The translations under genes were made by a program, and so were the position numbers. Below the pieces are notes generated by a model that was given only the letters and a program-made list of their open reading frames with translations, was not told where the DNA came from and searched no databases. Source: Flavobacteriales bacterium 34_180_T64 (GTDB taxonomy: Bacteria; Bacteroidota; Bacteroidia; Flavobacteriales; Flavobacteriaceae). From it: a DNA stretch of 24,000 bases. The stretch spans positions 155,199-179,198 of the forward strand of contig MAAR01000012.1 of assembly GCA_002162765.1 (NCBI GenBank). The letters are read 5' to 3'. Positions 7,871-20,018 of this stretch are shown one piece after another (position 1 is the first letter of the stretch; every line of letters starts with the position of its first letter).

Positions 7871-9382
<1,512 letters not shown>

Positions 9383-9400
9383 TATAAAACAACCTAAATT

Positions 9401-9679
9401 ATGTTTTTAGAAATTGTAACACCTGAAGCAACTTTATTTAGCGGAGAAGTAGAATCTATTTCTATTCCTGGAGTTAATGGTGAGTTCGAAATGTTAAATA
9501 ATCACGCACCAATTGTCTCTCTTTTAAAAGAAGGACATGTGAAAATTTTTGGTAGCATTGAACTCGATGAAGAGGTAGAAGACAAATTTGTAAAAGGGAA
9601 AGACAGAGGAACTTGGTTAGCAATTAATTCTGGTACTATTGAACTTAAAGACAATAAAGTTATTGTATTAGCTGATTAA
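9401..9679 (+). CDS. atpC: F0F1 ATP synthase subunit epsilon (short form)
   Basis: 92 aa, 18 nt after atpD. N-terminal beta-sandwich pattern (LEIVTPE...FSGEV..I.IPG..GEF..L.NHAP). Confidence 0.85.
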   Translation: MFLEIVTPEATLFSGEVESISIPGVNGEFEMLNNHAPIVSLLKEGHVKIFGSIELDEEVEDKFVKGKDRGTWLAINSGTIELKDNKVIVLAD

Positions 9680-9710: not shown

Positions 9711-9737
9711 AGCCAAACTTAGTGTTTGGCTTTTTTT
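9711..9737 (+). terminator. Rho-independent terminator after atpC (shared convergently with the GNAT gene)
   Basis: AGCCAAAC (9711-9718) pairs with GTTTGGCT (9724-9731) across a TTAGT loop. The paired arm runs into a T run (9731-9737) whose end overlaps the stop codon of the minus-strand gene. Confidence 0.8.
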
Positions 9738-10293
9738 ATGCCCAATTCCAAATGATCAGCTCCCAATTACGATCATTAGACGTATAGGTTTTTAATACTT
9801 CAAATCCAATGGCTTTGTGAGCATCTATTGATCTTATATTTTCCCCATCAACCTCAGTTATTATCATATTAAACGTTGCGTTTAATTCCGCTCTCATAAA
9901 CTCATACAAACCTCTAAATATGCCTAACTTTCTATAGGATTTATCAATACATATTTGTCCCATTGTTAGGTAACTTAGCTTCTCTTTATTCTGAATTCGT
10001 AATTCTTTATCTATTTCATTAAACATTGATACCAATACTGGAATCTCTTTTTGGAATTCTTGAAGCATACACAATGCATATCCCACAACTTTTGAATTAT
10101 GCTTCGCAATGACATGCGCACATTTGTCATTCATCGATTTTAATAATTCAAACGAATGGTGAACAGTTACAAAACCTTCCTTATCTTTTTCAGAATTCGA
10201 AAGTCCTTGAGGCAAATTTATACGTTGAAGTTCTAGAATTTGATGCAATTCTTCGTTGGTAAAAGCTCTTTTATAGCTGATATTGGTATTCAT
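9736..10293 (-). CDS. GNAT-family N-acetyltransferase
   Basis: 185 aa. Acetyl-CoA binding motif A-like segment (QICIDKSYRKLGIFRGLY, i.e. the Q/RxxGxG/A region) and an overall GNAT-like beta-alpha pattern. Confidence 0.65.
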   Translation of the reverse strand: MNTNISYKRAFTNEELHQILELQRINLPQGLSNSEKDKEGFVTVHHSFELLKSMNDKCAHVIAKHNSKVVGYALCMLQEFQKEIPVLVSMFNEIDKELRIQNKEKLSYLTMGQICIDKSYRKLGIFRGLYEFMRAELNATFNMIITEVDGENIRSIDAHKAIGFEVLKTYTSNDRNWELIIWNWA

Positions 10294-10358: not shown

Positions 10359-10904
10359 ATGTATGACAATATAATTGTATCTGAAAGTGACAGACCAATT
10401 TGGCAAATTCCAGTTGCGGCATTTCTATTTACTCTTGCTTTAGCTTTAATTCTGAGAGCTTTTTATCTTAATGATTGGTCTTATCATGATGTAATCCTTT
10501 TAACAGAAGATTTCAAGCATTCTTCTTTGTTAGCAGCAGTTGGTGTTGGGTTTTGTTCTCAAAAACGAATTTATATTGATTTAATCAATTCCAAAATTAA
10601 ATCAGCATTTGAAATAGGCCCTCTTAAGTTTGGAAAATGGCAAACGATGAAGAATCTAGAATACGTATCCGTTTTTCATAGACCTAAAGAAAATGGTAGT
10701 TATGCTTTCGAAGTAAATCTTTGGTATGAAAAGGTTAAACGCATTGAACTTTATGAAAGAGACAACTATTTCGAGGCCTTTAAAATTGGGTTTAATGTAT
10801 CAGAAGGATTAAATATAGACTTATTAGACGCAACTGTTGCACACCAAAGTACGTGGGTAGATAAAGACAAGTGGAAACGAAAAATGAATGATGAAAATTC
10901 CTAA
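10359..10904 (+). CDS. Hypothetical 2-TM membrane protein, bio-locus paralog A
   Basis: 181 aa. Two hydrophobic segments (IPVAAFLFTLALALILRAF; SSLLAAVGVGF), then a soluble domain. Clear paralog of 16413..16892, sharing IDL..K, GKW, EY[VI]SVF, NL[WF]Y, K.IE.Y, AF, SE.LNID[LI]LDAT. Its stop overlaps the bioF start by 14-17 nt. Confidence 0.7.
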   Translation: MYDNIIVSESDRPIWQIPVAAFLFTLALALILRAFYLNDWSYHDVILLTEDFKHSSLLAAVGVGFCSQKRIYIDLINSKIKSAFEIGPLKFGKWQTMKNLEYVSVFHRPKENGSYAFEVNLWYEKVKRIELYERDNYFEAFKIGFNVSEGLNIDLLDATVAHQSTWVDKDKWKRKMNDENS

Positions 10905-12033
10905 AAAGCTACAAACCAAAATTGACCAACGTGTTAAAGAAGATGCACTACGCCAACTTGGTGAACACAGTAATATCGTGGATTTTGCTTCTAACGACTA
11001 TTTAGGATTTTCAAAATCAAGAACCATTTTTAATAAAACTCATGATTATCTTGTTGGACATGATTGTTTGCAGAATGGATCAACCGGTTCTCGCTTATTA
11101 TCCGGAAACCATCCTTTATATACAACTTTAGAAAGCATCCTTTGTGAATTCCATAATAGTGATTCAGCTTTGGTTTTTAATTCTGGTTATGATGCCAATT
11201 TAGGATTCTTTTCTTCGGTACCTCAACGCAGTGATCTCATTTTATATGACGAGTATATTCACGCTTCCATAAGAGATGGGATTCAACTTTCAAATGCAAA
11301 AGCTTATAAGTTTAAGCACAATGATATTGAGCATTTAATCTTACGTCATTCTGAACTTGTTTCAGAATCTCATCAACATATTTATATCGTGACAGAATCC
11401 GTGTTTTCTATGGATGGTGATTCACCTGATTTAAAAGGGTTCGTCGAATTCTGCAATCAAAATGACTGTTTTTTGATTACTGATGAAGCACATTCCGTTG
11501 GAGTTCACGGTAAAAACGGCATCGGTTTACTGCAAGATTTAAATCTAGAAAAAGATGTATTTGCTAGAATTATAACCTTTGGAAAAGCTTTGGGCTCGCA
11601 TGGTGCTGCAATTCTATGTCATGAAGATTTGAAGTCCTACTTAGTCAATTTTGCCCGCTCGTTTATTTATACCACAGCCTTAACTCCTCATACATTAGCA
11701 ACAATTTCGACTGCCTATAATGAAATGTTGATGACCTCTGCATTAGAAAAACTGCAGCAAAACATCAAGTTTTTCAATACTGAAATTAAACGACTCAACC
11801 TAAAACAGTTCTTTATTCAAAGTACTTCGTCTATACAATCATGTGTGTTGTCAGGAAATGAAACTGTGAAAACTATTGCTGAAAAATTACAGGTTCTAAA
11901 TTACAATGTGAAGCCTATTTTATCCCCTACAGTTCCCAAAGGAGAAGAACGCTTACGATTTTGTTTACATTCTTATAATTCTGAGAAAGAAATGACTGAA
12001 GTTTTAACCATGTTAGCTACTTTTGTGTTATAA
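10888..12033 (+). CDS. bioF: 8-amino-7-oxononanoate synthase
   Basis: 381 aa class-II aminotransferase-like. GSTGSRLLSGN, IVTESVFSMDGD, ITDEAHSVG and the PLP-lysine context TFGKALGSHGAAI. Start could be the second ATG at 10891. Carries an in-frame copy of the 31-nt hairpin element at 11344-11374. Confidence 0.9.
   Translation: MMKIPKKLQTKIDQRVKEDALRQLGEHSNIVDFASNDYLGFSKSRTIFNKTHDYLVGHDCLQNGSTGSRLLSGNHPLYTTLESILCEFHNSDSALVFNSGYDANLGFFSSVPQRSDLILYDEYIHASIRDGIQLSNAKAYKFKHNDIEHLILRHSELVSESHQHIYIVTESVFSMDGDSPDLKGFVEFCNQNDCFLITDEAHSVGVHGKNGIGLLQDLNLEKDVFARIITFGKALGSHGAAILCHEDLKSYLVNFARSFIYTTALTPHTLATISTAYNEMLMTSALEKLQQNIKFFNTEIKRLNLKQFFIQSTSSIQSCVLSGNETVKTIAEKLQVLNYNVKPILSPTVPKGEERLRFCLHSYNSEKEMTEVLTMLATFVL
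11344..11374 (+). repeat. 31-nt hairpin repeat, copy 1 (inside bioF, in frame)
   Basis: CGTCATTCTGAACTTGTTTCAGAATCTCATC. Stem ATTCTGAA/TTCAGAAT (11348-11355 / 11361-11368), loop CTTGT. Translated in the bioF frame as RHSELVSESH. Confidence 0.85.
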
Positions 12034-12042
12034 TCTTTTTAA

Positions 12043-12420
12043 ATGAAAGACAGCCATACCGTTTTAGCCGTATTTGAATATTCAACTGAAGCTCAAATCA
12101 CTAAAACTAAATTAGAATCTGAAGATATAAGAGCAATTTTGGCTGACGAAAAAACAATCGATACAGATCCATTATTAAGTCAAGCAATTGGTGGTGTCAA
12201 ATTATTGGTTCATAACGATGATTTCGATAAAGCTGTAAAAATCTATAACGATATAAGAGCCTATAGAAAAGATGTAAATGGAAATGAGGTACATTGTGTA
12301 AATTGTAATTCTACTCGGGTTTTAATGGCGCCGCCTAACCGTAAAAAATTCTTATATATGTTATTCCCTTTTTTCGAAAAAAGTAAAAATATGTGTAACG
12401 ATTGTAAAACTATATTCTAA
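12043..12420 (+). CDS. Hypothetical protein: DUF2007-like N-terminal domain plus C-terminal CxxC...CxxC zinc ribbon
   Basis: 125 aa. The N-terminal ~70 aa resemble the small 'putative signal transducing' DUF2007 fold pattern (my recollection). The C-terminus has CVNC (x30) CNDC. Starts 9 nt after the bioF stop, and its TAA abuts the bioD ATG. Confidence 0.55.
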   Translation: MKDSHTVLAVFEYSTEAQITKTKLESEDIRAILADEKTIDTDPLLSQAIGGVKLLVHNDDFDKAVKIYNDIRAYRKDVNGNEVHCVNCNSTRVLMAPPNRKKFLYMLFPFFEKSKNMCNDCKTIF

Positions 12421-13029
12421 ATGAAGCGCATATTTGTAACTGGTATTTCTACAGATGTTGGTAAAACTATTGCTTGTGCAATACTTACAGAAGCCCTTAA
12501 AGCGGATTACTGGAAGCCTATACAAGCTGGAGAATTAGAATCTTGTGACACAAAAAGAGTTCAGCAATTAGTGGCAAACAAAATTTCAAAATTTCATCAA
12601 AATTCATATGCATTACATACTCCTATGAGTCCTCATGCGGCGGCAGATATTGATGGTATTTCGATTGATTTAAAATCTATTAAACCGCCAAAAACTAAAA
12701 ACCACTTGATTATTGAAGGTGCAGGCGGATTATTGGTACCAATAAATGACACTCAAACAGTTTTGGATATAATGGAACCTAATTCAAAAGTGATTGTCGT
12801 TTCAAGACACTATTTAGGTAGTATAAACCATACCCTTTTAACGGTTAACCTTCTTAAAGAAAAAGGTTTTGACGTGTCAATTATTTTTAGTGGTGATGAA
12901 CACGAAACAACAGAAGATATAATTACAAAAATGACCAACGTGCCAATTATTGGCCGTATAAATGAAGAGCCTTACTTCGATAAAAATGTTGTTAAGGAAT
13001 ATGCAGAATTATTCAAAGAAATGTTATAA
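12421..13029 (+). CDS. bioD: Dethiobiotin synthetase
   Basis: 202 aa. P-loop VTGISTDVGKT, EGAGGLLVP motif, size and context. Confidence 0.9.
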   Translation: MKRIFVTGISTDVGKTIACAILTEALKADYWKPIQAGELESCDTKRVQQLVANKISKFHQNSYALHTPMSPHAAADIDGISIDLKSIKPPKTKNHLIIEGAGGLLVPINDTQTVLDIMEPNSKVIVVSRHYLGSINHTLLTVNLLKEKGFDVSIIFSGDEHETTEDIITKMTNVPIIGRINEEPYFDKNVVKEYAELFKEML

Positions 13030-13068: not shown

Positions 13069-13347
13069 ATGAAATCTAGTTATGTTTACATATTAACCAA
13101 TCCATATAGAACTACATTTTATATTGGAGTAACAGACAATTTACATAAAAGATTAGAAGAACATTACGATGAAACTGCTTCAAAATTTACTAAAAAATAC
13201 AACATTAAAGATTTGATTTATTTTGAAAATTTTACTGAAATAGAACAGGCGATTGCAAGAGAAAAACAATTGAAAAATTGGCATAAAGCATGGAAATTGA
13301 ATTTAATTAAAACATTAAATCCAACTTTAAAAACTTTAGATTATTAA
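13069..13347 (+). CDS. GIY-YIG nuclease-family small protein (COG2827/UPF0213-like)
   Basis: 92 aa. YVYILTN...FYIGVTDNLHKRLEEH...FTKKY...LIYFE...AIAREKQLKNW matches the GIY / YIG / R / E signature order of the small stand-alone GIY-YIG proteins. Confidence 0.9.
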   Translation: MKSSYVYILTNPYRTTFYIGVTDNLHKRLEEHYDETASKFTKKYNIKDLIYFENFTEIEQAIAREKQLKNWHKAWKLNLIKTLNPTLKTLDY

Positions 13348-13362
13348 ATTTACAATACAAAT

Positions 13363-13393
13363 AATGAGATGCTGAAACAAGTTCAGCATGACG
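13363..13393 (-). repeat. 31-nt hairpin repeat, copy 3 (inverted)
   Basis: Reverse complement reads CGTCATGCTGAACTTGTTTCAGCATCTCATT. Stem ATGCTGAA/TTCAGCAT (13369-13376 / 13382-13389). It supplies the ATG used by the ORF track as the bioA start. Confidence 0.85.
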
Positions 13394-13404
13394 AACGACC
13401 AACA

Positions 13405-14670
13405 ATGACATTACAAGAGAGAGATAAAAAACACCTCTGGCATCCCTTGACGCAACATAAATTGCATCCAGATCATATTGCAATCACAAAAGCTAAAGGA
13501 TGCATGTTGACTGATGAAAACGGGAGATCCTATATTGATGCTATCGCTTCTTGGTACACTTCAATGTATGGGCATTGCAATTCGTATATCACTTCTCAGG
13601 TTACTGAACAAATGCAATCTCTGGATCAAATTGTTTTCAGTGGATTTACACATGAGCCCGCCATTCAATTGAGTGAAGCGCTTATTAAAATACTCCCTGA
13701 AAATCAAAATAAAATTTTCTTTAGTGATAATGGTTCAACTAGTGTTGAGATTGGAATAAAAATGGCATTGCAATTTCATTTCAACAATCATGAAAAGAGA
13801 AATACTTTAATTGCTTTTGAAGATGGGTTTCATGGGGACACATTCGGAGCCATGAGTGTTTCCGGATTGTCCGTTTATAATGGCCCTTTTGAAGACTATT
13901 TTTTAGATGTTAAACGGATTCCTACACCTAATGGAAAGAATCATGATTTTATTTTAGATGCGTTAAAATCCATAACTGAATCTCACAAAGTGGCAGGTTT
14001 CATTTATGAGCCTTTAGTTCAAGGTGCGGCGGCAATGAAAATGCATAATACCGAAGGATTAGATTTAATATTGAAATTTTGTAAAGACCATAAAATCATT
14101 ACTGTTGCTGATGAAGTTATGACAGGATTTGGTAAAACTGGCCGTAATTTTGCATCGGATTATATGTCGAATAAACCTGATATTATATGCTTGAGTAAGT
14201 CGTTAACAGCTGGATTATTACCAATGGCAATTACGTCCTGTTCTCAAGAAATTTACGAAGCTTTTTATAGTGATGATATAAGTAAAGGATTGTTTCATGG
14301 GCACACCTACTCTGCTAATCCATTGGCTTGTAGAGCAGCAATAGCAGGCATTGAATTATTACAATCTGAAGAAATTCAAGAAAACATCAAACGTATTATA
14401 GCATCTCATCGCAGGTTCGATGAACGCATAAAAAACCATTCGAAAGTAAAATCAACACGTCAAACAGGAATTATTTTCGCATTAGATTTAAACATTGAAA
14501 TGGAGCGCTATGGAAATTTACGAGACAAACTCTTCAATTTCTTTATGAACAATGGCGTGTTTTTAAGGCCACTTGGAAATACAATCTATATTCTAGCGCC
14601 TTATGTGATTAGTGAAACTGAATTGAAAAAAGTGTATGCGGTTATTGAAGAGGCTTTAAATACCTTCTAA
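13405..14670 (+). CDS. bioA: Adenosylmethionine-8-amino-7-oxononanoate aminotransferase
   Basis: Class-III aminotransferase. LWHPLTQH near the N-terminus, DEVMTGFGKTG, and the PLP-lysine context ICLSKSLTAG. I place the start at ATG 13405 (MTLQERDKKHLWHP). The track start at 13369 adds MLKQVQHDERPT, which is simply the translated hairpin repeat. Confidence 0.9.
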   Translation: MTLQERDKKHLWHPLTQHKLHPDHIAITKAKGCMLTDENGRSYIDAIASWYTSMYGHCNSYITSQVTEQMQSLDQIVFSGFTHEPAIQLSEALIKILPENQNKIFFSDNGSTSVEIGIKMALQFHFNNHEKRNTLIAFEDGFHGDTFGAMSVSGLSVYNGPFEDYFLDVKRIPTPNGKNHDFILDALKSITESHKVAGFIYEPLVQGAAAMKMHNTEGLDLILKFCKDHKIITVADEVMTGFGKTGRNFASDYMSNKPDIICLSKSLTAGLLPMAITSCSQEIYEAFYSDDISKGLFHGHTYSANPLACRAAIAGIELLQSEEIQENIKRIIASHRRFDERIKNHSKVKSTRQTGIIFALDLNIEMERYGNLRDKLFNFFMNNGVFLRPLGNTIYILAPYVISETELKKVYAVIEEALNTF

Positions 14671-15090
14671 ATTCTTATCTATTAAGTTTATTTCCTCTTG
14701 AGTCTCTTTTATTCTTACATATAATTCTTCATAGACCCATTCGCCATCAATTTTCTCTCCAACTACATAAATAGTCCCTTGACCATCAGATCCTTTAATA
14801 GGAATTCTAATATCTACATGCCCAGAATCTCCATTTTTTAAAGAAATATTTCCCTGCATGATCCCATTGGTCTCAATTGGGTCTCCTAAATGATAGGCAA
14901 CAATATCACTGAGTTTAGCTTCTTGAAGAGCATATTCATATGGTCCCGAATTTTTAATGGCATTTGTAACACCGAAAATTATTGCGCCAATTCCGAATAC
15001 AAATAATAAAATAACGGTAAGGCAACCACCTACAGGTAATAACCACAACCAATTTCTACCAAACCAACTTTTTTGTTTTACCTCTTCCAT
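14656..15090 (-). CDS. Small N-terminally anchored membrane protein (Coa1-like family, by recollection)
   Basis: 144 aa. One TM (WLWLLPVGGCLTVILLFVFGIGAIIFGV) followed by a ~100-aa soluble domain. Convergent with bioA, with 3' ends overlapping by 15 nt. The family label is from memory of similar Flavobacteriia annotations. Confidence 0.55.
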   Translation of the reverse strand: MEEVKQKSWFGRNWLWLLPVGGCLTVILLFVFGIGAIIFGVTNAIKNSGPYEYALQEAKLSDIVAYHLGDPIETNGIMQGNISLKNGDSGHVDIRIPIKGSDGQGTIYVVGEKIDGEWVYEELYVRIKETQEEINLIDKNLEGI

Positions 15091-15201
15091 AGATTCAATT
15101 ATATCTAAAGATAGGTATCTCTCATATAGTACTTGTTACAGAAATTGAAAATTATTTCCACAACAAGTTTCAAATTTCTGTGAAATGAATTCAGGATGGC
15201 T

Positions 15202-15209
15202 TATTTTTG
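15202..15209 (+). promoter_or_regulatory. Candidate -7 box (TAnnTTTG) for the second bio sub-operon
   Basis: TATTTTTG. Its terminal TTG is the very codon the ORF track uses as the KAS start (15207), so either the box or that start is wrong. Confidence 0.3.
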
Positions 15210-16376
15210 TCAAAAGAAAAAACCTTGCTTAAACCCATATCGATTACCGCCATAGCTGCTATTTCTCCCTTGGGAAATTCTTTAGATGAGGCTTGGGAAA
15301 ATTATAAAAACAACGCCCATTTTATTTCTGAAAAACAATTTTCAACTCAGCGTGTATTAATTTCGGAATTGTCTAATGAAGTACAGGCTGAAATAGAAAT
15401 TTTGAGACAATCTGAATCAAAATATAAAGCACTTGATAATTCAGTACTTTATGCCATATACACCTCTAGAAAAGCCGTAAAACAGGCAAATTGGAATTCT
15501 GAAGATCAATTTGGAATTAATATTGGATCTTCAAGAGGCGCAACACAGCTTTTCGAAACATATCATGAAGCATATCTCAAAAATAAAACCTCACACCCAT
15601 TAAGTTCCCCGACTACAACACTAGGTAATATTTCATCTTGGGTGGCCCATGATTTAAATTCTAAAGGACCTGAAATCAGTCACTCAATTACATGTTCCAC
15701 TGCCTTACATGCTATGCTTAATGGTATTGCCTGGATTAATGCTGGCATGTCTGACAAGTTTTTAGTTGGAGGAAGTGAAGCACCATTGACTGGCTTCACA
15801 ATTGCACAAATGCAGGCCTTAAAAATTTATGCAAAACACACTACAGATTATCCATGTCGAGCGTTAGATTTTTCAAAAAATGAAAATGAGATGGTTTTAG
15901 GTGAAGCCGCTGCTTCAGTTTGCCTAGAACAGGGTGAAACAAAAAATGCTTTGGCTGTAATTAAAAGCTTTGGATATGCTACCGAATTATTGGAACATAA
16001 CGCATCTTTATCAACTAATGCTATCTGTTTTCAGCGTTCCATGACAATGGCTTTAGGAGACATGGATCCCGCTTCAATTGATGTTATTGTTACACACACT
16101 CCAGGAACAATAAAAGGAGATATTTCTGAACATAATGCTATTAAAACTGTGTTCAAAAATAAAATTCCATCACTTACAAATAACAAATGGAAAATTGGTC
16201 ATAGTCTTGGAGCATCCGGTTTGACGAGTATTGAAATGGCCATTCTCATGTTGAAACATCAAGAATTTATAGGGGTTCCTTTTTGCAATGAACCGAAACC
16301 AAAAAAACTTCAAAACATTCTAATAAATGCAGTTGGTTTTGGTGGAAATGCGGTGAGTATTCTAATATCTAAATAA
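15207..16376 (+). CDS. Beta-ketoacyl synthase, KAS I/II (FabB/FabF)-like, embedded in the biotin locus
   Basis: 389 aa. Cys-His-His set in FabF-like contexts: GPEISHSITCSTALHA (Cys), VTHTPGTIKGD (His), NNKWKIGHSLGASG (Lys/His). C-terminal NAVGFGGNAVSILISK. No in-frame ATG near the 5' end; candidate starts are TTG 15207 or TTG 15225. Confidence 0.8.
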   Translation: MSKEKTLLKPISITAIAAISPLGNSLDEAWENYKNNAHFISEKQFSTQRVLISELSNEVQAEIEILRQSESKYKALDNSVLYAIYTSRKAVKQANWNSEDQFGINIGSSRGATQLFETYHEAYLKNKTSHPLSSPTTTLGNISSWVAHDLNSKGPEISHSITCSTALHAMLNGIAWINAGMSDKFLVGGSEAPLTGFTIAQMQALKIYAKHTTDYPCRALDFSKNENEMVLGEAAASVCLEQGETKNALAVIKSFGYATELLEHNASLSTNAICFQRSMTMALGDMDPASIDVIVTHTPGTIKGDISEHNAIKTVFKNKIPSLTNNKWKIGHSLGASGLTSIEMAILMLKHQEFIGVPFCNEPKPKKLQNILINAVGFGGNAVSILISK

Positions 16377-16412: not shown

Positions 16413-16892
16413 ATGAACACAAAAATTAGATACATAAAGAAAGTACCAATAATGAAACTCATTTTTGGTTTTGTTTTATTTTGTTTTGGGATACATGGTG
16501 CTATATTCAACAATGTTTTTAATTTAGTTTTATCTGGAATTGGTGTGTTCTTAATGTTGGCCCAAGGATCAGAAATAGATTTAAAAACAAAAAGATATAG
16601 AGAATTATATACTGTATTAGGAATTGACCTCGGTAAATGGAAAAATTTACCCGTAATTGAATATATTTCAGTATTCGCTACTTCAGAAAGCAGCAAAGTC
16701 CAGGCAATGGGAGCGTCAGCTAACTTTAAAAATAAAATTATAAAACTAAATTTATTTTATAATACGAATAAAAAAATAGAAGCTTATAGAACTGAAGATG
16801 TTTCTGATGCATTTAATGTTGCAAAACATTTTTCTGAAGTATTAAATATTGATATTTTAGATGCTACAGAACAAGAATCTAAATGGTTATAA
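16413..16892 (+). CDS. Hypothetical 2-TM membrane protein, bio-locus paralog B
   Basis: 159 aa. Two hydrophobic segments (MKLIFGFVLFCFGIHGAIF; LVLSGIGVFLMLA). The C-terminal domain is homologous to 10359..10904. Ends 27 nt before bioB. Confidence 0.7.
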   Translation: MNTKIRYIKKVPIMKLIFGFVLFCFGIHGAIFNNVFNLVLSGIGVFLMLAQGSEIDLKTKRYRELYTVLGIDLGKWKNLPVIEYISVFATSESSKVQAMGASANFKNKIIKLNLFYNTNKKIEAYRTEDVSDAFNVAKHFSEVLNIDILDATEQESKWL

Positions 16893-16919: not shown

Positions 16920-18014
16920 ATGATTACGGCAAGACACAACTGGACCAAAGAAGAAATTTTAGAGATATACAATAAGCCATTGATGGAATTGCTTTATGAA
17001 GCGGCTACCATTCATCGTATGCATCATGATCCAAACACGGTTCAAGTATCAACACTACTATCAATAAAAACAGGAGGCTGTTCAGAAGATTGTGGATATT
17101 GTCCCCAAGCGGCACGCTATCATACAGATATTGAAGGCAGTGATTTAATGAGTGTTCAACACGTTAAAGCACAAGCATTACGCGCTAAAGAATCAGGAAG
17201 TTCTAGGGTGTGTATGGGAGCTGCATGGCGAAATGTTAAGGATGGGCAAGAATTTGATGATGTGTTAGAAATGGTGCGTACAATTAACAAACTCGATATG
17301 GAGGTTTGCTGTACACTAGGTATGATTACAGAAAATCAAGCACAGCGATTGGCTGAAGCTGGATTATATGCATACAACCATAATTTAGATTCTTCCGAAG
17401 AATATTATAAAGAAGTAATCTCAACGCGAGGATATAAAGATCGTTTGGATACCATTGATAATGTTCGAAAAACAAATGTAACTGTATGTTCAGGAGGAAT
17501 AATTGGAATGGGCGAAAAAATAGAAGACCGAGCAGGAATGCTTGTTGCTTTATCTACGCTTAATCCGCAACCTGAATCTACGCCTATAAATGCATTGGTT
17601 GCTGTGGAAGGGACTCCAATGGAGGATGAAAAACCAGTTGAAATTTGGGACATGATTAGAATGGTGGCAACAACGAGAATCGTGATGCCTGAAACACAAG
17701 TTAGATTAAGTGCTGGTAGAACTCAAATGAGTCGCGAAGGTCAAGCCATGTGTTTCTTTGCTGGAGCAAATTCAATTTTTGCAGGAGATAAATTACTTAC
17801 GACTCCAAATCCTGATGTTAATGAAGACATGAAAATGTTTGATTTATTAGGATTAAATCCTCAAAAACCATTTACTAAAAAAACCCAACCGCAAACTGTA
17901 GAGGCAGGAGATTCTCAATATGAAGCATTGGGAGAAAAACCAAAATGGACGCGTCCAGAACACACTATTGAACGTAATGAAGACGCGAAAGTAAAAGCGA
18001 AATTATTGAGATAA
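16920..18014 (+). CDS. bioB: Biotin synthase (radical SAM)
   Basis: 364 aa. CSEDCGYCPQ radical-SAM cluster motif and an overall BioB pattern (NHNLDSS, GGIIGMGE). Charged C-terminal extension of ~45 aa. Confidence 0.95.
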   Translation: MITARHNWTKEEILEIYNKPLMELLYEAATIHRMHHDPNTVQVSTLLSIKTGGCSEDCGYCPQAARYHTDIEGSDLMSVQHVKAQALRAKESGSSRVCMGAAWRNVKDGQEFDDVLEMVRTINKLDMEVCCTLGMITENQAQRLAEAGLYAYNHNLDSSEEYYKEVISTRGYKDRLDTIDNVRKTNVTVCSGGIIGMGEKIEDRAGMLVALSTLNPQPESTPINALVAVEGTPMEDEKPVEIWDMIRMVATTRIVMPETQVRLSAGRTQMSREGQAMCFFAGANSIFAGDKLLTTPNPDVNEDMKMFDLLGLNPQKPFTKKTQPQTVEAGDSQYEALGEKPKWTRPEHTIERNEDAKVKAKLLR

Positions 18015-18087: not shown

Positions 18088-18948
18088 TTGGCTGCCTTGA
18101 AATTAAATCTTCAACAAATTCCTCGTGTTAAAACAATAACAAAAGAGGATTTCATAACGCACTATTTTAAACCACAAAAACCCGTGGTAATCGAACACTT
18201 CATTGAAGAATGGCCCGCATATGCTAAATGGAATCTTGATTACATCAAAGAAATAGCTGGTAATAAAATTGTGCCTTTATATGATGACAGACCTGTAGAT
18301 TATAATGATGGATTCAATGAACCACATGCTTCAATGAAAATGAAGGATTATATAGACCTTCTTCAAAATGAACCAACCAAATATCGGATCTTCCTTTGGA
18401 ATATTCTAAAAGAAATTCCTCAACTTCAAGAGGACTTTAAATTTCCTGATTTTGGTTTAAAGCTTATGAAAAGGATGCCTTTGTTGTTTTTTGGAGGCGA
18501 GGGTTCTCATACATTTATGCATTATGATATTGATTTAGCTAATATTTTTCACTTCCATTTTGAAGGTAAAAAACTATGCATATTATATGACCAAAAGCAG
18601 AATCCGTTTCTATATAAAATCCCCCATTCATTGATCACAAGAGAAGATATTGATTTTGCAGATCCAGATTTAGATAAATGGCCAGACCTTAAAAACGCTA
18701 CAGGATGGACTTCAGAATTATCCCATGGCGAAGTTTTATATATGCCTGAAGGGTATTGGCACTATATGAAATATTTAACTCCGGGATTTTCAATGAGTCT
18801 TCGAGCAATTGCCAGAAATCCAAAAAATCTAGTAAAAGCCATATATAATGTAATCATTATGCGAAATTTTGACAGCATCATGCGAAAACTTAAAGGTCAA
18901 AAATGGATTGATTGGAAAAACCAACAGGCTACTTCTAAATCAAATTAA
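18088..18948 (+). CDS. Cupin-like / JmjC-domain protein (putative Fe(II)/2-oxoglutarate-dependent oxygenase)
   Basis: 286 aa. HxD in GSHTFMHYDID, a distal His in EGYWHYMKY, and EGKKLCILY between them, in the JmjC/Cupin_8 order. Start is TTG 18088 or TTG 18097 (MKLNLQQIP). Confidence 0.7.
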   Translation: MAALKLNLQQIPRVKTITKEDFITHYFKPQKPVVIEHFIEEWPAYAKWNLDYIKEIAGNKIVPLYDDRPVDYNDGFNEPHASMKMKDYIDLLQNEPTKYRIFLWNILKEIPQLQEDFKFPDFGLKLMKRMPLLFFGGEGSHTFMHYDIDLANIFHFHFEGKKLCILYDQKQNPFLYKIPHSLITREDIDFADPDLDKWPDLKNATGWTSELSHGEVLYMPEGYWHYMKYLTPGFSMSLRAIARNPKNLVKAIYNVIIMRNFDSIMRKLKGQKWIDWKNQQATSKSN

Positions 18949-19015: not shown

Positions 19016-19507
19016 ATGAAAAATTTAACTGTTGTTCTTATGCTATTTTCTGTAGCATTTGTTAATGCTCAAGCTTATAAGGGCAAAGGAGATACTAAAT
19101 TTCAAATTGGAGTGAATTTTCAAAATGGCGCATCAGGAATAAATGCGAGTTATGATATTGGAGTTGGTGAAAACATATCATTTGGACTCTCTTCTACTTA
19201 TCTCTTAGGTGTTGATGATAAGCTCAACGCAAGTTTTGGTGATCGTTTTGATATAAAAGCCCGATTTAATGCAAATATTGGAAACGTTGTGAACATAGAT
19301 GACAATTTTGATATGTATCCTGGTTTGAATTTTAGTTTAAAGAACTTTGGTGGTCATTTAGGACTTAGATATTTTTTTACCACTGGTTTTGGTGTGTTCA
19401 CTGAAATGAATGCTCCAATTTCTAAATATAATTCTGGAGCACTTACTCCAGCCGAAAAATTACACAATCAATTCTCTGTAAATTTAGGCGCAATATTTAA
19501 TCTATAA
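19016..19507 (+). CDS. Small outer-membrane beta-barrel protein (DUF6646-like, by recollection)
   Basis: 163 aa. Signal peptide MKNLTVVLMLFSVAFVNAQA. Alternating-hydrophobicity strands and a C-terminal ...NLGAIFNL typical of OM barrels. Confidence 0.6.
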   Translation: MKNLTVVLMLFSVAFVNAQAYKGKGDTKFQIGVNFQNGASGINASYDIGVGENISFGLSSTYLLGVDDKLNASFGDRFDIKARFNANIGNVVNIDDNFDMYPGLNFSLKNFGGHLGLRYFFTTGFGVFTEMNAPISKYNSGALTPAEKLHNQFSVNLGAIFNL

Positions 19508-19544: not shown

Positions 19545-20018
19545 TTATTTGATTAACGTATTTACTTTTTCATAGACCAGATGGCTTTCCCATCCCCTGT
19601 AAAGCAAATAATCCACTAGTTTTTTCTTTCTTTTGAACACATTGGATTCCTTAATTTGATGAAATCTCTTTAGGGCCAATTCGTCCAGAGAATTTATATA
19701 TTCGTCTTCAGGGATTTCCTTCATTGCTAACTTAATATTATACTCGGAGATGTCTCTATATTTTAATTCTCTCGTAATTCTAACGCGTCCCCATTTCTTA
19801 ATTTTAAATTTACCTTGTGTGAAAATTCTTGCGAAACGTGACTCGTTTAAATAATCCTGTCTAATCAATGAGACTACAATTAAATCGATAGCTTCAGGTA
19901 TCATTCGCATAGATTTAAGTTTTTGATGAACTTCTTTATGACAACGCTCCTGATAAGCACAATAAAATTCTAATTTTTTTTGTGCTTCATCGAAAGTATA
20001 TGTTTTTTGTGGAATCAA
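19545..20018 (-). CDS. recX: Regulatory protein RecX
   Basis: 157 aa. N-terminal A..K...YCAYQERCHKEV..KL pattern and helical-repeat organisation typical of Bacteroidota RecX. Start is a TTG (20016-20018) that is also the end of a TAnnTTTG match, so the start is uncertain. Confidence 0.7.
   Translation of the reverse strand: MIPQKTYTFDEAQKKLEFYCAYQERCHKEVHQKLKSMRMIPEAIDLIVVSLIRQDYLNESRFARIFTQGKFKIKKWGRVRITRELKYRDISEYNIKLAMKEIPEDEYINSLDELALKRFHQIKESNVFKRKKKLVDYLLYRGWESHLVYEKVNTLIK

What the first reader, a model, noticed from the sequence alone, without database searches (positions are those of the whole stretch)
15207..16376. Catalytically intact KAS I/II-like enzyme inside the biotin locus; no recognisable pimelate-arm gene nearby
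The locus encodes bioF, bioD, bioA and bioB. I see no BioC-type methyltransferase, no BioH/G/K/J-type esterase, and no BioW, BioI or FabH-like BioZ in the window. Instead, the second sub-operon begins with a 389-aa FabB/FabF-like ketosynthase carrying the Cys-His-His set and the Lys before the second His. By analogy with BioZ, a KAS III that builds the pimeloyl moiety in alpha-proteobacteria, this KAS I/II-type enzyme could provide a dedicated condensation step toward pimeloyl-ACP. That would be a distinct route, but it remains a hypothesis. The missing genes may simply lie elsewhere in the genome.
Basis: inference. Interest (0 to 1): 0.75.

Follow-up and report, generated by a model that had tools for sequence, protein, structure and literature searches.

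The report
Biotin-operon ketosynthase with arginine-capped pocket
A fatty-acid-type condensing enzyme sits inside the biotin gene cluster of many marine flavobacteria, has an invariant arginine where ordinary versions have a greasy residue, and probably builds the seven-carbon arm of biotin by a route nobody has described.

Summary
Window 15207-16376 (+) encodes a real FabF-like ketosynthase; the true start is probably TTG 15225 (383 aa). It has Cys163, His297, Lys327, His332 and the GFGG Phe378. It lies between bioA and bioB. No BioC, BioH/G/K/J/V, BioW, BioI, BioZ or BioE-like gene is in the 24 kb.

It is not a housekeeping FabF. It scores 144 bits against the NCBIfam fabF model (cutoff 494) and is 21-24% identical to solved FabF structures, although a confident model has the FabF fold. 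It belongs to a distinct family found in at least 521 species genomes. Members only 36-45% identical sit in biotin operons with at least five gene orders, often with overlapping stop and start codons.

All 138 family representatives have Arg at the position of E. coli FabF Ile108. That residue is the hydrophobic "back gate" at C7-C8 of the bound acyl chain. Neighbouring pocket residues are also polar.

My best reading is a dedicated condensing enzyme for an omega-carboxy primer, most likely glutaryl, plus malonyl-ACP, giving 3-oxopimeloyl-ACP. That makes it a KAS II-type analogue of BioZ.

Two things are unproven: the biochemistry, and whether BioC or BioE is absent from the rest of these genomes. 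I found no paper describing this enzyme.

The parts
15225..16376 (+). Biotin-operon ketosynthase, KAS II fold. The first-stage ORF starts at TTG 15207; the likely true start is TTG 15225 (383 aa). Catalytic residues C163, H297, K327, H332 and F378, and pocket Arg110, are numbered from the 15207 start.
   Evidence: Pfam and NCBIfam scans. Alignment to E. coli FabF/FabB. Family conservation. AF2 model with pLDDT 96.8, best PDB matches FabF at TM 0.88-0.90. Conserved bio-operon context.
15202..15209 (+). Bacteroidetes-type -7 promoter box TATTTTTG (consensus TAnnTTTG) for the KAS-unk159-bioB sub-operon. It overlaps the TTG that was called as the start.
   Evidence: Sequence. The same TAnnTTTG box sits at the equivalent place upstream of the KAS in related loci that have their own promoter. 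The consensus itself is from my own knowledge.
15131..15168 (.). 38-nt imperfect palindrome ACTTGTTACAG-N16-CCACAACAAGT between the divergent Coa1-like gene and the KAS. It is identical at 25 of 38 positions to the E. coli bioO BirA operator. It is a possible regulator site, but unproven.
   Evidence: sequence and inverted repeat. One search gives E. coli bioO. The full dyad is not widely conserved. A TTGTTAC(A) half-site recurs in about 14 related loci.
16413..16892 (+). 159-aa predicted membrane protein of unknown family between the KAS and bioB. It is a paralogue of the 181-aa protein at 10359-10904. It may be an accessory component.
   Evidence: No Pfam or NCBIfam hit even at E=10. Paralogy: BLASTP E=8e-17. 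A homologue overlaps the KAS stop codon in L091, where no other bio gene is nearby.
16920..18014 (+). bioB, biotin synthase. It is the last recognised biotin gene of the second sub-operon.
   Evidence: TIGR00433 398 bits against cutoff 225. Radical_SAM and BATS domains.
13369..14670 (+). bioA, DAPA aminotransferase. The first ~12 codons of the ORF come from a palindromic repeat, so the real start is probably Met13 at 13405.
   Evidence: TIGR00508 532 bits against cutoff 405, with the alignment starting at residue 23. Palindrome at 13369-13389.
12421..13029 (+). bioD, dethiobiotin synthase.
   Evidence: TIGR00347 117 bits against cutoff 83.
10888..12033 (+). bioF, 8-amino-7-oxononanoate synthase. 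It would consume the pimeloyl thioester.
   Evidence: Best NCBIfam hit is TIGR00858 at 332 bits, below the 426 cutoff. Aminotran_1_2 domain.
12043..12420 (+). DUF2007-like protein with a C-terminal Cys4 motif, between bioF and bioD. Role unknown.
   Evidence: PF09413 24 bits. Present at this position in 56 of 80 flavobacterial loci.
10359..10904 (+). 181-aa membrane protein, paralogue of 16413-16892. It is the first gene of the bioF sub-operon and overlaps the bioF start.
   Evidence: Present in 22 of 80 loci.

Best explanation
The gene encodes a dedicated biotin-pathway ketosynthase of the FabF (KAS II) fold, and it supplies the pimeloyl arm. It keeps the full decarboxylative Claisen machinery. 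Its acyl pocket, however, is closed at about the C7-C8 position by an invariant arginine and lined with Ser, Thr and Gln.

I infer that it loads a short omega-carboxyacyl primer, most likely glutaryl (C5), from ACP or CoA onto Cys163. It then condenses that primer with malonyl-ACP to give 3-oxopimeloyl-ACP. The ordinary FabG, FabZ and FabI would reduce this to pimeloyl-ACP for BioF. In this reading the arginine neutralises the free carboxylate, so no BioC methyl ester or BioH esterase is needed.

**Shown:** the gene is real, the catalytic residues are intact, the family is distinct from housekeeping FabF, it is tightly linked to bio operons, and it has the Arg and polar pocket signature.

**Inferred:** the identity and source of the primer, the use of housekeeping ACP and reductases, and the absence of other pimelate routes in these genomes.
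For: - **Operon linkage survives deep divergence and rearrangement.** Observed gene orders are bioF-bioD-bioA-KAS-bioB, bioB-F-D-A-KAS, KAS-bioB-F-D-A, KAS-bioB and bioD-A-KAS. Several have overlapping stop and start codons.
- **The family is distinct.** It scores far below every curated FabF/FabB cutoff and is 21-24% identical to solved FabF structures, despite TM 0.88-0.90.
- **Catalysis looks intact.** C163, H297, K327, H332, F378 and T301 are conserved in 134-138 of 138 representatives.
- **The pocket is charged and polar.** R110 is present in 138 of 138 representatives and aligns to FabF I108 in three independent alignments. The I108/F202 pair is the hydrophobic back gate at about C7-C8 of the acyl chain (PMC9006962). 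Other pocket positions are polar: L111 to T, V134 to S, I138 to T, A162 to T, G201 to Q.
- **No other pimelate gene is nearby.** None is in the window. About 170 related loci give no tblastn match to E. coli BioC or AcpP.
- **There are precedents.** BioZ shows that FAS II accepts 3-oxopimeloyl-ACP with a free carboxylate (PMC7645780). The KAS DVU2563 in the Desulfovibrio bio cluster is required for biotin synthesis (PMC10102598).
Against: - There is no biochemical or genetic test of any family member.
- I could not search whole genomes, so BioC plus an esterase, or BioE, may exist elsewhere. BioE is reported in some Flavobacteriaceae (PMC12915131).
- KAS I/II enzymes normally take acyl-ACP primers, and no source of glutaryl-ACP is encoded nearby.
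- Four of 11 diverse family members are not next to bio genes.
- BioF of Elizabethkingia, in the related family Weeksellaceae, used only pimeloyl-CoA in vivo (PMC12915131). If this BioF behaves the same way, an ACP-bound product would need a further step.
- The position of the Arg side chain is inferred from alignment. I could not inspect model coordinates.
Confidence: 0.45

Rival explanations
1. The enzyme and the pathway goal are the same, but it works iteratively from malonyl-ACP without methyl esters. It would use malonyl as primer to make 3-oxoglutaryl-ACP. After FAS II reduction it would use glutaryl-ACP as primer to make 3-oxopimeloyl-ACP. This is a stripped-down version of the Desulfovibrio route that borrows the housekeeping ACP, FabG, FabZ and FabI.
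For: It needs no external glutaryl source, and none is encoded in the loci. Desulfovibrio genetics support a methyl-ester-free elongation with a dedicated KAS (PMC10102598). The polar pocket residues close to Cys163 (T162, S164, S134) could accommodate a short carboxylated primer.
Against: The invariant Arg sits at the C7-C8 gate. That is well placed for a C5 carboxylate but far from a C3 one. Loading malonyl on the active-site Cys without decarboxylation is unusual. Desulfovibrio needs a dedicated ACP, reductase and dehydratases, and these are absent here: tblastn with E. coli AcpP found nothing and FabG matched in one locus only.
Confidence: 0.25
2. The KAS serves a canonical BioC/esterase pathway encoded elsewhere in the genome. 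It would elongate malonyl-ACP and glutaryl-ACP methyl esters, because the flavobacterial housekeeping ketosynthases handle them poorly.
For: Whole genomes could not be searched. In E. coli the methyl-ester intermediates must be elongated by a KAS I/II enzyme (PMC9006962). An Arg could hydrogen-bond an ester carbonyl.
Against: No BioC-like gene lies next to the KAS in about 170 loci. The single adjacent methyltransferase, in L169, is spermidine-synthase-like and scores 17 bits against the BioC model (cutoff 185). A charged, polar pocket is the opposite of what a methyl ester needs. Weeksellaceae, in the same order, lack all known pimelate routes (PMC12704756).
Confidence: 0.12
3. The gene has nothing to do with biotin. 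It would be a spare fatty-acid or secondary-metabolite ketosynthase that merely shares conserved flavobacterial synteny with the bio genes.
For: Synteny in Flavobacteriaceae is broad: atpDC, recX and DUF6646 are also conserved around the locus. Four of 11 distant family members are outside bio operons.
Against: The linkage persists where the flanks and gene order are entirely different, and includes overlapping stop and start codons with bioA. The gene lies inside the operon, not at its edge. No ACP, ketoreductase, dehydratase or other polyketide partner is adjacent.
Confidence: 0.06

Closest known systems
[quoted passage not shown]
   Same: Both are single dedicated condensing enzymes encoded in the bio operon, in clusters that lack bioC/bioH. 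The proposed chemistry and product are the same. BioZ holds the glutaryl carboxylate with polar side chains, Ser84 and Ser287 (PMC12625853). Here the pocket is also made polar.
   Different: The ketosynthase class differs: FabF-type Cys-His-His with PF00109/PF02801, not FabH-type Cys-His-Asn. The pocket carries an invariant Arg. The primer carrier, ACP or CoA, is unknown. No CaiB-like glutaryl-CoA transferase is nearby.
Desulfovibrio bio-cluster FAS module (DVU2560-DVU2563: FabF-like KAS, dedicated ACP, FabG-like reductase and FabZ-like dehydratases), genetically required for biotin synthesis
   Same: Both have a FabF-like KAS inside a bio cluster of an organism without bioC/bioH, and both imply a methyl-ester-free route (PMC10102598).
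   Different: Here the KAS stands alone. No dedicated ACP, reductase or dehydratase is in the window or in about 170 related loci. The hosts are Bacteroidota, whereas the Desulfovibrio route is reported only from anaerobes.
Housekeeping FabF / FabB (KAS II / KAS I)
   Same: The fold is shared (TM 0.88-0.90). So are the catalytic Cys-His-His, the Lys, the GFGG gating Phe and T307. The basic ACP-docking positions are partly retained.
   Different: Identity is 21-24%. The protein scores 144 bits against the FabF cutoff of 494 and 94 against the FabB cutoff of 630. The Ile108/Phe202 back gate is replaced by Arg110/Met202, and the pocket is polar. It is encoded in bio operons, not beside acpP.
BioE (ferritin-like diiron oxygenase of Weeksellaceae, some Flavobacteriaceae and Chlamydia)
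   Same: [quoted passage not shown]
   Different: The fold and chemistry are unrelated: BioE oxidatively cleaves long-chain acyl chains, whereas this enzyme would condense. No BioE-like ORF is in the window.

Membership tests
Elongating ketosynthase, KAS I/II class (thiolase fold, Cys-His-His) | Ketoacyl-synt N- and C-terminal domains | tested here: met
   PF00109 84 bits and PF02801 51 bits, both above their gathering scores.
Elongating ketosynthase, KAS I/II class (thiolase fold, Cys-His-His) | Catalytic Cys, two His, the Lys before the second His, and the gating Phe of the GFGG loop | tested here: met
   C163, H297, K327, H332 and F378 align to FabF C163, H303, K335, H340 and F400. They are conserved in 137-138 of 138 family representatives.
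Elongating ketosynthase, KAS I/II class (thiolase fold, Cys-His-His) | FabF/FabB three-dimensional fold | tested here: met
   AF2 model pLDDT 96.8. The top 47 PDB matches are FabF or mitochondrial KAS, with the best at TM 0.87-0.90.
Housekeeping FabF (NCBIfam TIGR03150) / FabB (NF005935) | Score above the curated equivalog cutoff | tested here: not met
   FabF 143.7 bits against cutoff 493.75. FabB 94.3 against 630. No KAS model's cutoff is reached.
Housekeeping FabF (NCBIfam TIGR03150) / FabB (NF005935) | Hydrophobic acyl pocket with the Ile108/Phe202 back gate (Gly in FabB) | tested here: not met
   Arg110 in 138 of 138 representatives and Met202. Positions 111, 134, 138, 162 and 201 are Thr, Ser, Thr, Thr and Gln. 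The role of the gate is from PMC9006962.
BioZ | KAS III (FabH-like) protein with a Cys-His-Asn triad | tested here: not met
   No ACP_syn_III domains; the triad is Cys-His-His.
BioZ | Encoded in the bio operon | tested here: met
BioZ | Host genome lacks the other pimelate routes | not testable with these tools
   Only 24 kb of this genome and up to 10 kb either side of the gene in related loci could be read. None of these stretches holds BioC or BioE.
BioZ | Condenses a glutaryl thioester with malonyl-ACP and rescues E. coli bioC/bioH mutants | not testable with these tools
   This needs an enzyme assay and a complementation experiment.
Desulfovibrio-type bio-cluster FAS module | Dedicated ACP, 3-oxoacyl reductase and dehydratase genes next to the KAS | tested here: not met
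   None in the window. tblastn with E. coli AcpP gave 0 hits, and FabG matched in 1 of about 170 loci.
Desulfovibrio-type bio-cluster FAS module | Orthology of the KAS to DVU2563 | not tested
   The DVU2563 sequence was not obtainable with the tools.
BioC-BioH pathway | BioC methyltransferase and a pimeloyl-ACP methyl esterase (BioH/G/K/J/V) in the locus | tested here: not met
   No methyltransferase or alpha/beta-hydrolase is in the window. E. coli BioC gives no tblastn hit in about 170 loci. The rest of the genome was not searched.
BioE pathway | A protein of roughly 200 aa (inferred from the reported residue numbers) with ferritin-like fold and paired ExxH diiron motifs, next to bioF | tested here: not met
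   The only ORF of 120-330 codons with two ExxH motifs is the Cupin_8 gene. The gene upstream of bioF (10359-10904) has no ExxH.

The most novel reading that the evidence does not exclude
This family is the missing pimelate-arm enzyme of most Flavobacteriaceae, which are reported to be major marine biotin producers. A single FabF-fold ketosynthase would use a pocket arginine to accept free omega-carboxyacyl primers. That would replace both the BioC methyl-ester disguise and the BioH esterase, and would define a further independent route to pimeloyl-ACP alongside BioC/BioH, BioI/BioW, BioZ, BioE and the Desulfovibrio module.
Probability: 0.55. Interest if true: 0.8.

Novelty: new variant of a known kind. 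Interest (0 to 1): 0.72.

Why it matters
How bacteria make the pimelate arm is the variable and still incompletely mapped part of biotin synthesis. A new route, BioE, was published as recently as December 2025.

Flavobacteriia are counted as primary marine biotin producers on the strength of bioF, bioA, bioD and bioB alone (PMC9561691). The source of their pimelate has not been defined.

This family offers a concrete candidate that can be tested at once, together with a clear specificity hypothesis centred on Arg110. If the hypothesis is right, three things follow:

- It gives a second, independent example of a fatty-acid ketosynthase re-tooled for dicarboxylate primers.
- It improves the calling of biotin prototrophy from genomes and metagenomes.
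- It provides a compact one-gene part for engineering pimelate and biotin production.

Tried and rejected
- **BirA operator.** The palindrome at 15131-15168 resembles E. coli bioO at 25 of 38 positions. A dyad scan of 80 loci found it upstream of the KAS only in four Psychroserpens loci. Operon-leading regions of distant members show no shared operator. I do not use it as evidence.
- **BioC next to the KAS.** In L169 a methyltransferase overlaps the KAS stop codon. It is spermidine-synthase-like and scores 17 bits on the BioC model against a cutoff of 185.
- **Is the gene upstream of bioF a divergent BioE?** No. It has no ExxH motif, begins with a hydrophobic stretch that looks membrane-spanning, and is a paralogue of the protein at 16413-16892.
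- **Cupin_8/JmjC gene as an oxidative pimelate enzyme.** It follows bioB in 54 of 80 flavobacterial loci but is absent from the distant bio operons. It is probably lineage-specific synteny.
- **Profile search for distant members.** It returned only Flavobacteriaceae again and added nothing.
- **First structure model.** The shallow alignment gave an unusable model, pLDDT 53. The deep alignment fixed this.
- **BioE sequence.** The supplements of the two BioE papers held no sequence, so I could not test BioE/KAS exclusivity.
- **AFDB fold library.** It was unavailable.
- **Sigma-70 promoter and terminator scan.** It was uninformative for a Bacteroidetes genome.
- **Literature.** Nine full-text searches found no description of this enzyme.
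Full report
**What is there.** The window comes from Flavobacteriales bacterium 34_180_T64; the deposited protein P0001 is 100% identical. The plus-strand layout around the finding, is:

| Coordinates | Gene |
|---|---|
| 7874-9679 | atpD, atpC |
| 9736-10293 (-) | GNAT acetyltransferase |
| 10359-10904 | 181-aa membrane protein, unknown family |
| 10888-12033 | bioF |
| 12043-12420 | DUF2007-like protein |
| 12421-13029 | bioD |
| 13069-13347 | GIY-YIG protein |
| 13369-14670 | bioA |
| 14656-15090 (-) | Coa1-like protein |
| 15207-16376 | the ketosynthase |
| 16413-16892 | 159-aa membrane protein, paralogue of the 181-aa one |
| 16920-18014 | bioB |
| 18088-18948 | Cupin_8 protein |
| 19016-19507 | DUF6646 protein |
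| 19545-20018 (-) | recX |

The rest of the window holds a DUF4270 protein, glmS, a TonB-dependent receptor, a GDSL-like protein and a large secreted protein. No ORF resembles BioC, a BioH-type esterase, BioW, BioI, BioZ or BioE.

One correction is needed. The TTG at 15207 lies inside a Bacteroidetes -7 box, TATTTTTG at 15202-15209. The same box sits at the same place in related loci. The start is most likely TTG 15225, giving 383 aa as in the database entry.

**The protein is an intact KAS II-fold enzyme but not a housekeeping one.** It has both ketoacyl-synthase domains. Alignment with E. coli FabF and FabB, fetched, matches C163, H297, K327, H332 and the GFGG Phe378 to the catalytic residues. 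A model built on a deep alignment has pLDDT 96.8. Its best PDB matches are FabF structures at TM 0.88-0.90 but only 21-24% identity.

Against curated NCBIfam models it reaches 144 bits for FabF (cutoff 494) and 94 bits for FabB (cutoff 630), and passes no family cutoff. The best PDB sequence match is about 105 bits, and no member of the family has been solved. An exhaustive search of cluster representatives found 150 or more clusters scoring above 220 bits, down to 36% identity. This is a broad family of its own.

**Linkage to biotin genes.** A scan of one genome per species confirmed relatives in at least 521 genomes; the best 80 are all Flavobacteriaceae. In those 80 loci, bioA lies upstream in 76, bioB downstream in 72, and bioF and bioD are present in 74. 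The variable gap between the KAS and bioB is usually an inserted NfeD-like plus flotillin pair.

Synteny within one bacterial family can mislead, so I looked at distant members. A metagenome scan seeded with 31-43%-identical members gave 80 more loci. With the six loci fetched that makes 86, of which 77 have at least one bio gene beside the KAS.

I also examined eleven diverse representatives individually:

| Representative(s) | Context |
|---|---|
| P0237, P0226 | bioB-bioF-bioD-bioA-KAS |
| P0147, P0175 | bioF-bioD-bioA-KAS-bioB |
| P0203 | KAS-bioB-bioF-bioD-bioA |
| P0139 | KAS-bioB |
| P0270 | bioD-bioA-KAS |
| P0189, P0265, P0241, P0260 | not next to bio genes |

The flanks are unrelated between these loci, and several junctions have overlapping stop and start codons (non-bio contexts). 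None of the roughly 170 loci gives a tblastn match to E. coli BioC or AcpP, and only one each matches FabG and FabH.

**The pocket.** Across 138 representatives clustered at 50% identity, Arg110 is invariant. In three independent alignments it matches Ile108 of FabF. According to a ketosynthase review, Ile108 and Phe202 form the hydrophobic back gate at about C7-C8 of the bound acyl chain. Ile108 is highly conserved in FabF, is Gly in FabB, and the I108F change restricts chain length (PMC9006962).

Other pocket positions are also polar and nearly invariant in the family: L111 to Thr, V134 to Ser, I138 to Thr, A162 to Thr and G201 to Gln. F202 becomes Met. The malonyl-decarboxylation residues are kept, and the basic ACP-docking positions are often kept.

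A short pocket capped by a cation is what one would design for an omega-carboxyacyl chain of about five carbons. That is inference. I could not inspect model coordinates.

**Mechanism proposed.** The enzyme takes a glutaryl thioester as primer and condenses it with malonyl-ACP to give 3-oxopimeloyl-ACP. The general FAS II reductases finish the job, as they do for the BioZ product (PMC7645780). Arg110 plays the charge-masking role that BioC methylation plays in E. coli.

- **Main rival.** The same enzyme works twice, starting from malonyl-ACP. This would be a minimal form of the Desulfovibrio methyl-ester-free route, where a bio-cluster KAS, ACP, reductase and dehydratases are all required for biotin synthesis (PMC10102598).
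- **Less likely.** It assists a BioC/esterase pathway encoded elsewhere in the genome.
- **Least likely.** It is unrelated to biotin.

**Limits.** I could not search whole genomes, so the absence of BioC, BioH or BioE elsewhere remains untested. BioE occurs in some Flavobacteriaceae (PMC12915131). The BioF of Elizabethkingia, in the same order, used only pimeloyl-CoA in vivo, which would complicate an ACP-bound product. No source of the glutaryl primer is encoded nearby. A GH3-family adenylating enzyme directly precedes the KAS in one locus and lies nearby in two others, which is only a hint.

**Comparison and novelty.**
- In function it most resembles BioZ, but it fails BioZ membership because it belongs to a different KAS class.
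- It resembles the Desulfovibrio KAS in class and setting, but lacks the dedicated ACP, reductase and dehydratase partners.
- It fails FabF/FabB membership on score cutoffs and on the back gate.

NCBI gives it only a generic domain name. Nine full-text searches found no paper on it. I rate it a new variant of a known kind: a dedicated ketosynthase for the pimelate arm. It is widespread in a group regarded as major marine biotin producers on the basis of bioFADB alone (PMC9561691).

Noticed in passing
window 10359-10904 and 16413-16892; L091 9136-9624: Two paralogous small proteins (26% identity, E=8e-17) have a hydrophobic N-terminal half and no Pfam or NCBIfam match even at E=10. One opens the bioF sub-operon and overlaps bioF; the other sits between the KAS and bioB. 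A homologue overlaps the KAS stop codon in L091, where no other bio gene is nearby. It could be an unrecognised partner of the KAS.
   Followed up: partly
window 12043-12420: A DUF2007-like protein with a C-terminal CxxC...CxxC motif lies between bioF and bioD. It is conserved at that position in 56 of 80 flavobacterial loci. Its role in biotin synthesis is unknown.
   Followed up: partly
window 13069-13389: A small GIY-YIG gene lies between bioD and bioA and is present in only 7 of 80 related loci. It is followed by the palindrome ATGCTGAAACAAGTTCAGCAT, which supplies the first codons (MLKQVQH...) of the bioA ORF. Similar GATGCTGAA... repeats occur in intergenic DNA of other loci, and the same MLKQVQHDE peptide begins an unrelated ORF in L015. 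This looks like a mobile insertion; the real bioA start is probably Met13, at about 13405.
   Followed up: partly
window 15131-15168: A 38-nt imperfect palindrome upstream of the KAS matches the E. coli BirA operator bioO at 25 of 38 positions, including most of the spacer. The full dyad is not conserved in most related loci, but a TTGTTAC(A) half-site recurs in about 14 of them.
   Followed up: partly
window 18088-18948: A Cupin_8 (JmjC-like) gene follows bioB in 54 of 80 Flavobacteriaceae loci but is absent from the distant bio operons. It is the only window ORF with two ExxH motifs. It is probably synteny rather than part of the pathway, but this is untested.
   Followed up: partly
L023 11798-13483, L066 11136-11834 and 31 other loci: An NfeD-like membrane protein plus a flotillin (SPFH-type) gene pair is inserted between the KAS and bioB in 33 of 80 flavobacterial loci. 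It splits the sub-operon that is contiguous in the window. Names are from reading the sequences; neither protein was scanned against a family library.
   Followed up: no
L171 6459-8000; L108 6355-7773 (-); L115 7127-8545 (-): A GH3-family (adenylate-forming) gene ends one base before the KAS start in L171. Homologues lie a few kb from the KAS-bioB cluster in two other loci. It is a possible primer-activating enzyme, but it is seen in only 3 loci.
   Followed up: partly
window 14656-15090 (-): [quoted passage not shown] It is present in 19 of 80 related loci. Where it is present, the KAS has its own promoter region.
   Followed up: no
L175 10342-11052: In one KAS-bioB locus, a lipoate/biotin protein ligase family gene (LplA-B_cat) lies two genes downstream of bioB.
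   Followed up: no
L044 6001-7056: A FabH-like gene (27% identical to E. coli FabH) lies about 1.5 kb upstream of bioA-KAS in one Bacteroidota MAG locus that shows no bioF or bioD. I did not examine whether it is BioZ-like.
   Followed up: no
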